Assembly: GCF_018350175.1 (NCBI RefSeq)
Contig: NC_058371.1
Location: 195,362,001-195,426,000, forward strand
DNA from: Felis catus
Lineage: Eukaryota
Reading direction: 5' to 3'
DNA: 64,000 nucleotides
Position 1 is the first letter of the stretch. The number at the start of each line of letters is the position of its first letter. This document shows, piece after piece, positions 52,504 through 58,489 of this stretch. The notes under the pieces are model-generated. The model made no database searches, had not been told where the DNA came from, and worked only from the letters and a program-made list of their open reading frames with translations. Both the position numbers and the translations under genes were made by a program.

Positions 52504-55500
52504 CATGGCGAAAAGGAAAAAGTGTCCTCTTCAAAGGACCTGAAGCATGTTCACACAAAAAGCGAACCAAGTAAACCTGCCCGGAGACTTTCCGAGTCGT
52601 TGCATTCGGCTGATGAAAACAAAAATGAGTCCAAGATAGAGAGAGAACACAGAAGACGCACATCCACCCCCGTCGTGGAGGAAGGGGCACAGGAAGAGGC
52701 TGATGCAAGAGATGGGAAGAGGCAGGCAGAACGGTCAGAGGTTGGCACCGAAGAGCCCCAGAAACAGAAGAGCACACTTAAAAATGAAAAGCACCTAAAG
52801 AAAGATGATTCTGAAACACCACATGTGAAAAGCCTACCTAAGAAAGAGGCAAAGTCCTCAAAGGACAAGCCTGAAAAAGAGAAGACTCTGTCAGAAGACA
52901 AAGTGTCTATGAAACATAAATATAAAGGTGACGGTCTGCATAAAACGAGTGAGGAGACGGAGCTTCACTCTTCTGAGAAAAGCTTAAAAGTGGATGAAAA
53001 TACTCAAAAGCAAAGTCAACAACCAAAACTGTCTTCGGATGATAAAACTGAACGAAAAAGTAAACATAAGAATGAGAGGAAATTATCAATTTTAGGCAAA
53101 GATGGGAAGCCAGTTTCTGAATATATTATAAAAACAGATGAGAATGTTCGTAAAGAAAACAACAAAAAAGAGAGACATGTTTCAGCCGAGAAAACTAAGG
53201 CAGAACACAAATCAAGAAGATCAAGTGATTCTAAAGTTCAGAAAGATTCTCTGAGTTCAAAGCAACACGGAATCCCATTGCAGAGAAGAAGTGACAGTTA
53301 TTCAGAGGACAAGTGTGATATGGACCCAACTAATGTAGATAGTAATTCGAAACCAGAAGAGATGGTTCACAAGGAGAAGCGAAGAACAAAGAGCCTACTG
53401 GAAGAGAAGCTTTTGTTAAAGTCGAAACCAAAAAGTCAGGGCAAGCAGTTAAAAGTAGTTGAACCGGAATTACAAGAAAGTGTCGCGAAACAGGTGACCA
53501 CTCCAAAACCAGATAAGGAGAAGAACGCAGAAGAGATCAACCCAGATAGACAGCGAAAGTCTAAAGTTGAAGACAAACCTTCTGAGGAAACTGGTGTAGA
53601 AGCTGTATCGGACAGTGCCGCTTCTTCACACGGGGTACAGAAGGACTCTTCGAGTCACAGAGCCAAGTTACCATTAGCAAAGGAGAAATATAAGGCTGAA
53701 AAAGATTCAGGCCCCTCCAGACCTGAGAGGAAGTTATCAGATGGGCACAAAAGCAGAAGCTTAAAGCATAGCAGTAAGGAAGTGAGAAAAAGGGAAGAAA
53801 ATAAATCGGATGACAAAGATGGTAAAGAAGTTGACAGTAATCACGACAAGGCCAGAGGGAATAGTTCGGTTATAGAAAAGAAATTGAGTAGGAAGTTGTG
53901 TGAAAACCGAAGAGGAAGCTTATCCCAAGAAATGACCAAAGGAGAAGAAAGATCAGCAAACACCTTGGGCACCACCAGTAGTTCCTCCATTCAGAGACCA
54001 AAAAGGAGTGGTGATACCACATCGATGCCTGAACAAGAGCCAATGGAAATTGATTCCGAGCCAGCTGTTGAAAATGTGTCTGAAGCATCTAAAAGCCAAG
54101 ACAACAGCAATACTATCTCTCAACAAGACGTTGACTCTGAAAATGTTACGAAACAAAAAACCGCAGTCCCGGTTCTAAAGGATGAATTAAGAACTTCCAC
54201 AGTAGACTCAAAAACAGCAGCTCCAGCCTGTAAATCAGGACGTGGGACAGGAGTTGTTAGTAATTCTGAAAGGCACGCTGACCATAAAAGCACCCTGACC
54301 AAGAAAGTGCATATCCAAAGTGCTGTGTCCAAACTGAACCCTGGGGAGAAAGAACCCATTCACCAGGGAACTCATGAAACAAATACAGACTCCGAAACTA
54401 GTCCTACACCGTTTCCTCGAGCCCCGTCCGACAATGACAGGGCACAAAAGAATTTGAAAAATACAACCAGGCCCCCCGAAGAACATGCTGCCCAAGGAGA
54501 TGCTGATCGTGTACATTCCCCAAATTTAGATCCTTCACCATCCTTAAGTTCAGTAACTGTCGTGCCTCCAAAACAGTCTCCTGATTCGGACGTAATTCCT
54601 TTGGTTGACGGGAGGACTGTTTTAGAAGGCGACCCAGCCAGCCCCTCACTTGTGGAGCGCTCTGGTATTCCTAACACAAGTTTGACTGCTAGGGAATCAC
54701 AAGTCCTTATGACAGGTGACAGCAAAGAAAGTGGGGCAGTTTCCACAGTAGATACACCGGCAAAAGCAAGCGTGGATAGCAAAAGACACATTCCAGAAGG
54801 TTACCAGCCCACTATGTTGCACAGTAAGCAGGGACAAGTAAACATGCCTGTTGGTAGCAAGTTAACTGACGCGAGGATGGAAAATGAGAGTGTTAACACA
54901 GAAGATGGCTTGATGGACGTGGCCAGGAAAGAAAGTGACTTAAGCACGGAGCCCAGTTCAAAGCCGACAGTGAGAGCTGTGCAAGAAAATGGCAAAAAGC
55001 ATGGCGTCACTGTTGACCCAGTGCTCGGCACGCGGACAGACAAAGCTGCCGAGACAGTTGTGCTCAAGTGTAGTAGTGGCCCAGGTGAAGTAGAAAACAC
55101 ATCAGTTGATGTTGAAAGAAGGACTGAAAACAGCGAGGTGGACACCAGTGTTGGATGTAATGCCACTTCCCCAGTTTTGCAGCAAAGGAGTGGAAATGCT
55201 GAGGGTGTGACTGCCGGGCCTGGCAGAGCAGAAAAGTCTTCTTTTGCCACTAGTTCCGAAGGGAAAGGCGAAGGTGTTCCCTTCAATACCGTGAAGGCGG
55301 GGGATGCTACAACCACGTCCTCAGAAACAGGACAGGGTGAGGTGGCTGTGCCCTGCATGAGCATTGAGGCAGACGAAGGCTTCGTAGCAGGTGTCTGCTC
55401 TGGAAACAGTCCCCTTCACGTCGGGGCAGAAGCCAGCGAATGCACTGTCTTCGCGGCGGCCGAAGAAGGCGGAGGCGTTGTCACAGAAGGGTTTGCCGAA

Positions 55501-58489
55501 AGTGAAACCTTCCTCACAAGCACCAAGGAGGGAGAGAGTGCAGAGTGTGCTATGGCCGAATCCGAAGAAAGGGCAGCAGACCCCGTGACTGCTCACGCAG
55601 TAACAATTGAAGACAATGTCAATAGTGGGGTGACAGAAGAGAAAGATGATGCTGTCACCAGCGCCGGCTCTGAAGAGAAGTGTGACGGCTCTTCACGTAG
55701 TGCGTTGGAAATGGCAGAAAGAACTGTCACCTTTATCAGTGAGGTTGAAAGCGATGGCGCGGTGACAAGTGCTGGGACAGAAGTAAGGGAGGGCTCCTTA
55801 AGCAGTGAGGAGGTGGATGGGTTCCAGAGAAATGTGACGAGAACGGGCCCCAAAAAAGAAACCGAGGGGACTGTGACATGCACCGGAGCGGAAAGGAGAA
55901 GCGCTGCTTTTGTCATGTGCTCCGTCACAGGCGCAGAGCGACAGGAGGAGCGTGTGGTTACAGGCGCAGCTGTGGCCCTGGCGGGTAATGACGCGCCACC
56001 AGGAACCAGCGCCCCCCAGGACGGAGACGCTTCTGTGAATGACGGCGCAGAAGGTGAGAGTGCCGTCACCAGCACTGGGATAACAGAAGAAGATGGAGAG
56101 GGGCCAGCCAGCTGCACAGGCTCGGAAGAGGGCAGCGAGGGCTTTGCTCTGAGCTCTGAATCAGAAGAAAATGGAGAGAGCGCAATGGACAGCACGGTAG
56201 CCAAAGAAGCCACTAACGTGCCTTTGGTCGCCGCTGGCCCATGTGACGACGAAGGCATTGTAACGAGCACCGGCGCAAAAGAGGAGGACGAGGAAGGTGA
56301 AGGTGTGGTGACCAGCACCGGAAGGGGAAATGAAATCGGGCATGCATCCACCTGCACCGGGGCAGAGGAGGAAAGCGAGGGGGTATCGATTTGCGGAAGT
56401 GCCGAAGAAGGGGACAGTCAGATTGGTACTGCGGCAGGGTGCGTGGGAGCTGAGGCCGGAGCCACCGTCACCAACGCCAACGAGAGCAGTGTTGACAGCT
56501 TGAGCGGTGCGGAGAAGGGCATGAAAGATCCGGAGATCTGCTCCAGCGCCAAAGGCGTCGTGGAAAGCAGCGTGACCAGTGCGGCTTCAGGGAAGGGTGA
56601 CGTGGCCCCAGTTCCCGGAGGTTGCGAGGCTCCCATGACCAGTGCAGCTTCAGATCACAGTGACAGTCTGCTCACCGGGAAGGAAAAAGTGGACGACACC
56701 ACTACTTCCACTGGCTTGGTGGGGGGCAGTTACGAGGCGCTCGGGTCAGGTGCGGGCCCACAATGTGAAGCTGGGCACATGTCGCCTGGTGGGAAGGAAG
56801 ACGAAGGAATCATCACCTCTGGGGAAAATGAAGAGTGTGATGGCCTTCTGGCCACTACAGCCAGTGACACCATTACCAACCCAGCTGGCGTAGCTGGGGG
56901 CAAAAGTCCAGGCAAAGGCTTGCTGATTTCCACCAGCACGACAAATGATTGCACCCCTCAGCTAAGCACAGTTGCTGATGTACGGGAGGGTCATTCAAGC
57001 GCACTGAGAGGTGGGGCAGATCGGGAAGGTGCCGGCATAAATGGGGAAGAATTCGAGGCCCCCATGCCCAGTGCGGTGTCAGGCGAGAGCCAGCTGGCTG
57101 CCGTGAGAAATGAGGACAAAGACGAGTGTGCCATGATTTCCACGAGCATCGGCGAAGAGTTCGAGGTGCCGATTTCTAGCGCGACGACCCTCGCGTGTGC
57201 CGAAAGTCAGCCGCCGGCGGCCGCGGCGGAGGAGAGTGCCAAAGGCGCCGGCTCGGCGAGCGCCGACGACTTCGAGGTGCCCATGCCCAGCGCGCCCACG
57301 CAAGCTGAAAGCCCCCTTGCCTCGACCAGCAAGGAGGAGAAGGACGAGTGCGCGCTCATCTCCACCAGCATAGCGGAGGAGCGCGAGGCCTCCGTGGCAG
57401 GCGCGCGGCCCGCCACCACCCTGGAAGAGAAGGACGGCAGTGCCATCATCTCCACCAGCTCGGGGGAGGACTGCGAGGGCCCCGTGTCCAGTGCCGCCCC
57501 GCGGGAGGAAGGCCACCCCTCGGCTGTGCGGGCGGAGGAGGTCGGCGACACCGCCATGATTTCCACGAGCACCTCCGAAGGCCGCGAGGCGGTCATGTGG
57601 GGCGCTGTCCCACGGGACGATGAGCGGCCCGCCGCTGCAAGGACGGAGGACTCCAGCGATACGGCCATCATCTCCACCAGCACGGCCGAGTGCGTGCTGC
57701 TGCCTGCCAGCCTCGACAGGCACGAGGAGAGCCCGCTGACCGCCAGCGTCGCCGACAGAAAAGACCCCTCGGCCGCCAGGAGGAGCCGGGGTGAGGCCCC
57801 GACGCCCAGCCCGATGGCCGCGAACAGCCCTCCACACCCAGCGCCGCCGCCAGGGGCCAGAGCCATGGGCCCCGAGGACCGTCCCTGCGAGGTGCCACCG
57901 GCAGTGACAGAACGGAGCGAGAGCCCTTCGCCCCTCGTCGGTGTGGCAGAGAGGAGCACGTGGCCGAGCTCCGTTCAGAGAGGGCGGGGGGGCCAGGGGG
58001 CCGCCGCCGCAGGGCATGACACCTGTTGGGCAGGGAGGGGCGAGCAGAGGGGAGCGGGCGCACCCGAGGATGGACAGGGGCGGACGGCCGGGGACGCCTC
58101 CCTCGGGAGCTGCTGTTTGCCGGCAGTGAGTCCCGGTGCCGGGAGGGCCGACAACGTGCCTCCTGTCCCAGACGCTGCAGCGCGGCCGCCCTCTCCTGGG
58201 CACCGTGGGCCGGCCGACCCCGGGAAAACCACCACCAGTGAATGTGTTAATGGCCGAGAGTCAGAAACTGGTCCTTCCCACGGGGCGCCCCTTCCAGCTG
58301 CCTGTGCTGTAGCTCCGTCGGCTCCAAGACATGAGCAGGACTTGACCGTGACAAGTGACCACAACGGCGGACGGACAATCCAAGGGTCCAGTGAGAAAGC
58401 AGGAGACGGTAGTGGCATGAGGAAATCATTCCAGGAGGAAAGAGACCTCAAGGTCATTGTTCCTCCTGAGGAGAATTTGCACGATATAG
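52504..58489 (+). CDS. BOD1L1: BOD1L1 giant exon 10 (5986 nt)
   Basis: Long poly-T tract + acag|CAT GGC GAA...GAT ATA G|gtgaga. Accounts for the 1998-aa ORF 52522-58518. Lys/Glu/Ser-rich and then Gly/Ala/Glu/Thr-rich low-complexity protein matching recalled BOD1L1; phase consistent with exons 9 and 11. Confidence 0.96.

What the first reader, a model, noticed from the sequence alone, without database searches (positions are those of the whole stretch)
56623..57720. Cryptic ~36-aa tandem repeat (about 11 units) inside the BOD1L1 giant exon
Seen: an anchor residue (C/F/Y/R, mostly followed by E/D) recurs in frame at 56623, 56731, 56836, 56950, 57052, 57160, 57271, 57382, 57472, 57583 and 57691. 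The spacings are 108, 105, 114, 102, 108, 111, 111, 90, 111 and 108 nt. The consensus is roughly acidic-[AC][ALM]IST[ST]-x3/4-[FCY]E-x-P[MIV]xSA, e.g. DECAMISTSIGEEFEVPISSA, DECALISTSIAEEREAS, GSAIISTSSGEDCEGPVSSA, DTAMISTSTSEGREAV, DTAIISTSTAEC. Established: BOD1L1 is a replication-fork protection factor and SETD1A partner, usually treated as disordered outside its N-terminal Shg1/BOD1 domain. I do not recall this repeat being annotated. Inference: ancient intra-exonic tandem duplication produced an array of short hydrophobic beta-prone motifs with acidic linkers. Such arrays can serve as multivalent docking sites for a small hub partner or as phospho-clusters.
Basis: partly seen in the sequence, partly recalled or inferred. 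Interest (0 to 1): 0.7.

Follow-up and report, generated by a model that had tools for sequence, protein, structure and literature searches.

The report
Hidden docking-motif ladder in BOD1L1
The giant exon of this cat-family BOD1L1 gene (a DNA-repair and chromatin scaffold) hides an ancient 37-residue repeat that is part of a ladder of about 20 conserved short motifs in a predicted floppy tail, which likely works as a many-site docking strip for a peptide-reading partner, possibly the ubiquitin-ligase adaptor SPOP.

Summary
The repeat is real: anchors and spacings are exact, and lags 37 and 74 beat 300 of 300 shuffles. It is stronger in human, opossum, gharial and tuatara orthologues. The conserved element is a 7-residue core, [DE]-small-[APIV]-[VMI]-[TISP]-S-[TA], found about 20 times over nt ~55,500-57,700 (human ~1600-2340). 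Block A (VTS[TA]G cores, upstream) is kept as far as caecilians. Block B (the finding: 37-aa doublets) was found in amniotes only. Profiles of each block detect the other (0 of 1000 shuffles), and cores are more conserved than linkers. AlphaFold gives no fold. Pfam, PDB and five literature searches show no annotation of the repeat. The best-fitting known ligand class is the SPOP-binding motif, but no core meets its strict consensus. Published proteomics are mixed: weak enrichment by proximity labelling, absent from IPs. The partner is therefore inferred, at about 30%. The scan's earlier notes hold nothing on this locus.

The parts
52504..58489 (+). Giant coding exon of BOD1L1 (1995 codons, about residues 602-2597)
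   Evidence: Splice sites; tblastn of P0003; homologues named BOD1L1
55243..55323 (+). Two degenerate upstream cores (FATSSE, DATTTSS; human ~1517, ~1537)
   Evidence: Conservation 0.82 and 0.89; assigned by eye
55504..56586 (+). Block A: VTS[TA]G-type cores starting at 55645, 55753, 55864, 56056, 56098, 56176, 56251, 56299 and 56563 (human 1651-1955); lag-13 periodicity, with several spacings of 36-40 aa
   Evidence: seven matching cores in each of two caecilians
56587..57030 (+). Block B, eroded units 1-4: surviving cores EAPMTSAA (56626), DTTTSTGL (56695), EGIITSGE (56803), KGLLISTS (56914)
   Evidence: no periodic signal alone in cat
57031..57720 (+). Block B, units 5-11: 37-aa doublets of an A[MLI]ISTS core (57124, 57346, 57436, 57547, 57658) and, 13 aa later, a P[MIV]xSA core (57055, 57163, 57274, 57475); human 2116-2337
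57790..57810 (+). Relic of a further unit (GEAPTPS; human ~2371); crocodilians, birds and tuatara keep more downstream units

Best explanation
The exon encodes a lysine-poor, acidic, predicted-disordered segment built by ancient tandem duplication, in which about 20 copies of one short core are conserved while the linkers drift; the cores likely act together as weak docking sites for an oligomeric MATH-domain reader, most likely SPOP. Shown: the repeat, the shared core, its age and the selective conservation. Inferred: each core would bind as an extended strand, with the hydrophobic residue (+1) in the MATH pocket and the Ser (+3) hydrogen-bonded. At least one core per ~37 residues would let a SPOP oligomer bind by avidity. 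Lysine is only 2.7-2.8% in the array against 15.8% at the start of the exon, so BOD1L1 would serve as a scaffold or buffer for CUL3-SPOP at SETD1A chromatin, or be ubiquitylated on lysines outside the array. Phosphorylation of the core Ser would likely switch binding off.
For: Cross-validated core: a block-B profile finds block A and the reverse, 0 of 1000 shuffles each. Cores against linkers: block A 0.97 vs 0.83 (37 placentals), 0.89 vs 0.63 (18 other amniotes), 0.53 vs 0.26 (2 caecilians); block B 0.96 vs 0.73 and 0.65 vs 0.41; this holds in residue-matched comparisons. The most conserved column is Ser +3 (1.00 and 0.87), and +1 is V/M/I/L in all 17 in-register cores. PMC7618200 names +1 and +3 as the SBC positions whose mutation hurts most. 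It accepts relaxed +4/+5 (Pdx1 VTSGE with Asp at -3; MyD88 VDSSV with Ala at -1) and describes substrates with several low-affinity degrons in disordered regions. All 7 four-of-five SBC matches in the array are conserved. Caecilians carry a separate ~30-aa array with an acidic -3 residue and 4 and 3 strict SBC matches. SPOP is enriched in BOD1L-SETD1A split-TurboID, log2 2.78, p 0.020. No fold is predicted.
Against: Strict SBC matches: 0 in the cat array, 0 in full-length human and leopard-cat BOD1L1; Q-motif matches: 0. Four-of-five matches are not enriched (7 vs 4.2; 111 of 1000 shuffles). ISTS cores put non-polar Ile at +2. The caecilian strict count is not significant (17 and 29 of 200 shuffles). 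SPOP is absent from the BOD1L1 IP-MS table, where CUL3 is at control level. BOD1L is absent from two SPOP MS supplements and from the main text of a SPOP substrate review. The TurboID signal misses the authors' P<0.01 cut, rests on missing values, and I could not see whether the construct held the array. Deleting the 'conserved IDR' (coordinates not seen), or all but residues 1-200, still rescues leukaemia cell growth. The [VIM]-polar-S and phi-x-S-[ST]-[ST] enrichments (0 of 1000) were defined after I had seen the motif and are not independent.
Confidence: 0.3

Rival explanations
1. The cores are a multivalent docking array for another reader not yet matched to this motif (another MATH/TRAF domain such as TRIM37, a WD40 or Kelch propeller, or a reported partner such as BPTF or PP2A).
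For: The same conservation evidence. The invariant acidic -3 residue and the retained G/A at +5 are not required by the SBC. TRIM37's TRAF domain reads several low-affinity motifs by avidity. PP2A binds fragments spanning 500-2001. BPTF binds BOD1L apart from SETD1A.
Against: No consensus for these readers was available to test. TRIM37 is not enriched by TurboID (log2 -0.21). RIF1 maps to fragments F1-F2 and F6, outside the array.
Confidence: 0.27
2. The cores dock the USP7 MATH domain ([PA]xxS, pattern recalled), recruiting a deubiquitylase.
For: 14 conserved [PA]xxS matches in the same register. USP7 has 4 unique peptides in one of two BOD1L1 IPs and 0 in control.
Against: The total count is not enriched (24 vs 17.9; 63 of 1000). 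Position -1 varies (I, V, F, C, T, S) while +1 is fixed. TurboID log2 0.20.
Confidence: 0.12
3. The array is a modification platform (O-GlcNAc by OGT, or CK2-type phosphorylation) that tunes charge, solubility or phospho-readers.
For: The cores are S/T-rich. OGT has 4 and 2 unique peptides in two IPs and 0 in control. ISTS cores are followed by a conserved Glu at +3 from their last Ser. BOD1L runs as high, multiple bands.
Against: CK2 sites are not enriched (388 of 1000 shuffles) and no [ST]Q site is conserved. OGT also comes with the SETD1A complex. A fixed hydrophobic +1 and acidic -3 suit a binding pocket better than a kinase consensus (inference).
Confidence: 0.15
4. The F-E-x-P words dock PP4 (PPP4R3 EVH1, FxxP).
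For: 3 FxxP matches against 0.5 expected (8 of 1000 shuffles), 1 fully conserved.
Against: It explains 3 of about 20 cores. The validated FxxP examples I read are FKKP, FRTP and FRVP, basic at +1. PPP4R3A was not found in the IP table (the SMEK1 alias was not searched).
Confidence: 0.05
5. The repeat is a neutral relic or an acidic spacer, or it folds as a solenoid.
For: The region is dispensable in leukaemia rescue and CRISPR tiling. The basic start of the exon is also well conserved (0.88).
Against: The motif-specific, residue-matched conservation reaches caecilians. AlphaFold mean pLDDT 47.8, pTM 0.12, no residue at 70 or above (alignment of only 37 sequences).
Confidence: 0.08

Closest known systems
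Multi-degron SPOP substrates (Puc VTSTT, Pdx1 VTSGE, MyD88 VDSSV; Nup153 with 15 consensus sites) - PMC7618200, PMC10245568
   Same: Hydrophobic-polar-Ser core in a disordered region, many copies, relaxed +4/+5; Pdx1 also has an acidic residue at -3.
   Different: No strict consensus and no Q-motif in the amniote array; regular 13/37-aa tandem architecture; lysine-poor; BOD1L1 not found in the SPOP lists I searched.
BOD1L1 'conserved IDR' of Hoshii et al. 2024 (PMC11381347)
   Same: Probably the same conserved central region (coordinates not seen); its deletion keeps SETD1A binding and leukaemia rescue.
   Different: No repeat, motif or partner is described in the passages I read.
USP7 and TRIM37 MATH/TRAF ligands (centrobin multi-motif binding, 10.1101/2024.10.09.617493; USP7 pattern recalled)
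   Same: Short Ser-anchored motifs (USP7) and avidity from several weak sites (TRIM37).
   Different: Position -1 is variable here; the TRIM37 motif sequences were not visible to me.
LC8/DYNLL multivalent arrays (TQT anchor, recalled)
   Same: Repeated beta-prone motifs in a disordered scaffold.
   Different: No x-Q-T/V anchor in the array (0 matches); DYNLL1 is not enriched.

Membership tests
SPOP substrate with SBC degrons | Strict consensus nonpolar-polar-S-S/T-S/T | tested here: not met
   0 matches in the cat array, 0 in whole human and leopard-cat proteins; 4 and 3 in the separate caecilian array
SPOP substrate with SBC degrons | Hydrophobic +1 and Ser +3 (the most critical positions) | tested here: met
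   +1 is V/M/I/L in 17 of 17 in-register cores and +3 is Ser in 16 of 17 (one Cys); conservation 0.97 and 1.00
SPOP substrate with SBC degrons | Polar residue at +2 | tested here: inconclusive
   T/D/S in 11 of 17 cores, Ile in 4, Pro in 2
SPOP substrate with SBC degrons | Q-motif long degron (lambda-Q-x-x-x-phi-pi-S) | tested here: not met
   0 matches to the paper's relaxed search pattern; optional in the family
SPOP substrate with SBC degrons | Sites in a disordered region, in multiple copies | tested here: met
   pLDDT 47.8 for block B; 21-25 profile hits in 10 of 12 amniote species shown, 16 and 12 in a lizard and a snake (Tupaia entries left out)
SPOP substrate with SBC degrons | Groove-dependent physical binding | not testable with these tools
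   Published data are mixed: TurboID log2 2.78, p 0.020; absent from IP and AP-MS tables
SPOP substrate with SBC degrons | CUL3-SPOP-dependent ubiquitylation | not testable with these tools
   'ubiquitin' occurs 0 times in the 2025 BOD1 family review
USP7 MATH ligand | [PA]xxS (recalled) | tested here: inconclusive
   14 conserved matches; total not enriched, 63 of 1000 shuffles
PP4 EVH1 ligand | FxxP | tested here: inconclusive
   3 matches, 1 conserved; acidic at +1
LC8 array | TQT-type anchor (recalled) | tested here: not met
   0 matches
Folded solenoid repeat or known domain | Confident fold or family match | tested here: not met
   pTM 0.12; Pfam 0 families for 3 of 3 queries; PDB profile 0 hits

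The most novel reading that the evidence does not exclude
BOD1L1's tail is a regularly spaced ladder of 20-25 sub-optimal SPOP sites without nearby lysines. It was built twice by exon-internal duplication (amniote block B and a separate caecilian array). It tethers or buffers CUL3-SPOP oligomers at SETD1A chromatin and stalled forks instead of marking BOD1L1 for destruction.
Probability: 0.2. Interest if true: 0.8.

Novelty: new variant of a known kind. Interest (0 to 1): 0.55.

Why it matters
The 2025 review calls the BOD1L1 tail largely disordered, with functions assigned mainly at the two ends. This analysis gives a residue-level map of about 20 selected sites, so the function of the middle quarter of the protein can be tested with point mutants in place of 500-residue fragments. 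If it is not, the motif defines a ligand class whose reader is unknown.

Tried and rejected
TRF: no DNA-level repeat. Pfam: none. PDB sequence profile of 12 units: none. Own-genome search with block B: only the locus itself, next best E 3.05, so no paralogous array was seen. AlphaFold: no fold, so no fold search was run. A complex prediction of one block-B unit with a SPOP-family MATH domain gave no model and no verdict; binding is untested here. The ESM Atlas gave no answer. No frog or fish protein was among the 22 hits (10 identified) or the 58 hits; sensitivity is limited, so this does not date the origin. B56 LxxIxE and LC8 patterns: 0 matches; [ST]Q: 4 matches, none conserved. The shuffle test used a pattern fitted to the hits and is not counted as evidence. 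The supplement of PMC6182143 (a SPOP interactome) could not be read and bears on the SPOP claim. The supplements of PMC12802387 and PMC9616806 gave no hits for the relevant names and may not hold protein tables.

Full report
Identity. The finding lies in a 5,986-nt coding exon, 52504-58489 on the + strand. The region 1030-1750 of its product is 99% identical to BOD1L1 of Prionailurus and 75% identical to human, so the window is a felid BOD1L1 locus. The exon matches residues 601-2597 of the leopard-cat protein. Pfam finds nothing in it.

Observation. All 11 anchors and 10 spacings are as written. Lags 37 and 74 have z 5.6 and 5.9, reached by 0 of 300 shuffles. The signal comes from 57040-57720; 56575-57040 shows none (252 of 300). 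In orthologues the matching region gives lag-37 z of 7.3 (human), 11.3 (opossum), 9.8 (gharial) and 7.4 (tuatara), 0 of 200 shuffles each. TRF sees no DNA repeat. The five best units are 49-64% identical in DNA, and 25 of 52 four-fold sites agree, so the duplication is old. A doublet profile trained on five cat units does not pass the other six, but each of the 11 units keeps at least one half at 0.89 or more in 37 placentals. These 37 were picked one per species from the 120 listed of 506 hits.

What the element is. A unit is a doublet: an acidic-x-A-[MLI]-I-S-T-S core and, 13 residues later, an E-x-P-[MIV]-x-S-A core. The same 7-residue pattern, [DE]-small-[APIV]-[VMI]-[TISP]-S-[TA], also occurs upstream of the finding as VTS[TA]G cores (block A, lag 13, z 3.8, 3 of 300 shuffles). 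A profile from block B alone finds block A and the reverse, 0 of 1000 shuffles each. The first 982 residues of the exon score 24.0 and 36.3 against 52.4 and 50.6. A profile of 19 cat cores finds 25 sites in human, 22 in vole, 25 in elephant, opossum and platypus, 22 in gharial, 21 in pigeon, 23 in emu, 24 in tuatara, 16 in a lizard, 12 in a snake and 7 in each of two caecilians. Shuffles of the cat region give a mean of 0.6 and a maximum of 4 in 500. Block A is kept in caecilians (identity 0.53 in cores, 0.26 in linkers); block B is not alignable there (0.14 vs 0.13). Caecilians have their own ~30-aa array upstream, acidic-x-x-A-[TS]-S-S-x, with a lag signal reached by 0 of 200 shuffles (best lag 85 in one species; lag 1, a composition effect, in the other).

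Selection. Cores exceed linkers in both blocks, in placentals and in 18 other amniotes, also when only S/T, only V/I/M/L or only D/E residues are compared; none of 400 and 291 shifted masks reaches the observed value. Ser +3 is the most conserved column. AlphaFold2 on block B with 37 sequences gives pLDDT 47.8 and pTM 0.12. Lysine is 2.7-2.8% in the array and 15.8% at the start of the exon.

Mechanism. Conserved short cores in a disordered chain point to repeated docking sites (inference). Among the classes tested, the SPOP-binding consensus fits best. Positions +1 and +3 are the critical ones, +4 and +5 may be relaxed, Pdx1 (VTSGE, Asp at -3) and MyD88 (VDSSV, Ala at -1) resemble the VTSAG, VTSTG and MDSTV cores, and multi-degron avidity is the family's known mode (PMC7618200). 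Against this, the strict consensus and the Q-motif have 0 matches, four-of-five matches are not enriched (111 of 1000), and four of 17 cores have Ile at the polar position. SPOP is enriched in the BOD1L-SETD1A split-TurboID table (log2 2.78, p 0.020; below the authors' cut). It is absent from the BOD1L1 IP-MS table, which holds OGT in both IPs and USP7 in one. BOD1L is absent from two SPOP MS supplements. The region is dispensable for leukaemia growth. I put SPOP at 0.30, an unknown reader at 0.27, a modification platform at 0.15, USP7 at 0.12, relic or fold at 0.08 and PP4 at 0.05. It works like a multi-degron array; I do not file it as a SPOP substrate.

What is in print. Searches: BOD1L with repeat (243 papers, 30 listed), with SPOP (12), with USP7 (15), with short linear motif (2) and with O-GlcNAc (4). 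No listed title or abstract start describes this repeat or a SPOP link. What I saw: PMC12794331, part 1 of 7 and passages; PMC11381347, passages, section 33 and rows of Table S1; PMC9616806, passages and a supplement search; 10.1101/2023.08.06.552174, passages; PMC11962599, passages and supplement rows; 10.1101/2023.04.06.535882, passages, 'repeat' 0 times; PMC7618200, parts 1-3 of 8; PMC10245568, passages and supplement searches; PMC8486843 and PMC12802387, supplement searches only; PMC7776573, 10.1101/2024.10.09.617493 and PMC12159753, passages; PMC6182143, listing only. Figures, UniProt feature tables and subscription papers were not available, so an annotation there cannot be excluded. Hoshii et al. 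noticed a 'conserved IDR' but describe no motif in the text I read. The USP7, LC8, CK2 and TOPBP1 patterns are recalled.

Verdict. The partner is a testable inference. Interest 0.55; new variant of a known kind.

Noticed in passing
P0159 residues ~1547-1725 and P0163 ~1578-1760 (caecilian BOD1L1): A separate ~30-aa array of acidic-x-x-A-[TS]-S-S-x words upstream of block A, with 4 and 3 strict SBC matches; the whole-protein count is not significant.
   Followed up: partly
window 55645-57681, core codons: The core Ser uses AGY codons in VTS and PMxS cores but TCC in ISTS cores, whose last Ser is AGC. The core types are either offset by a one-codon insertion or converged on the same pattern.
   Followed up: partly
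P0002 (Tupaia, 3472 aa) residues 1869-2308 and 2319-2758: A 450-residue duplication of the array, 437 of 440 identical, absent from the other Tupaia entry P0118; likely an assembly artefact.
   Followed up: partly
window 57304-57903: GC3 rises to 0.85 with 64 CpG in 600 nt, against 0.37-0.41 at the start of the exon; after 57740 conservation across placentals drops to 0.65.
   Followed up: no
window 52504-54300: The basic, lysine-rich start of the exon is as conserved as the array (0.88) but shows no periodicity.
   Followed up: no
P0111 (Camelus ferus entry): A BOD1L1-like entry listed with Pfam PF00046 (homeodomain, recalled) in place of PF05205; probably a fused gene model.
   Followed up: no
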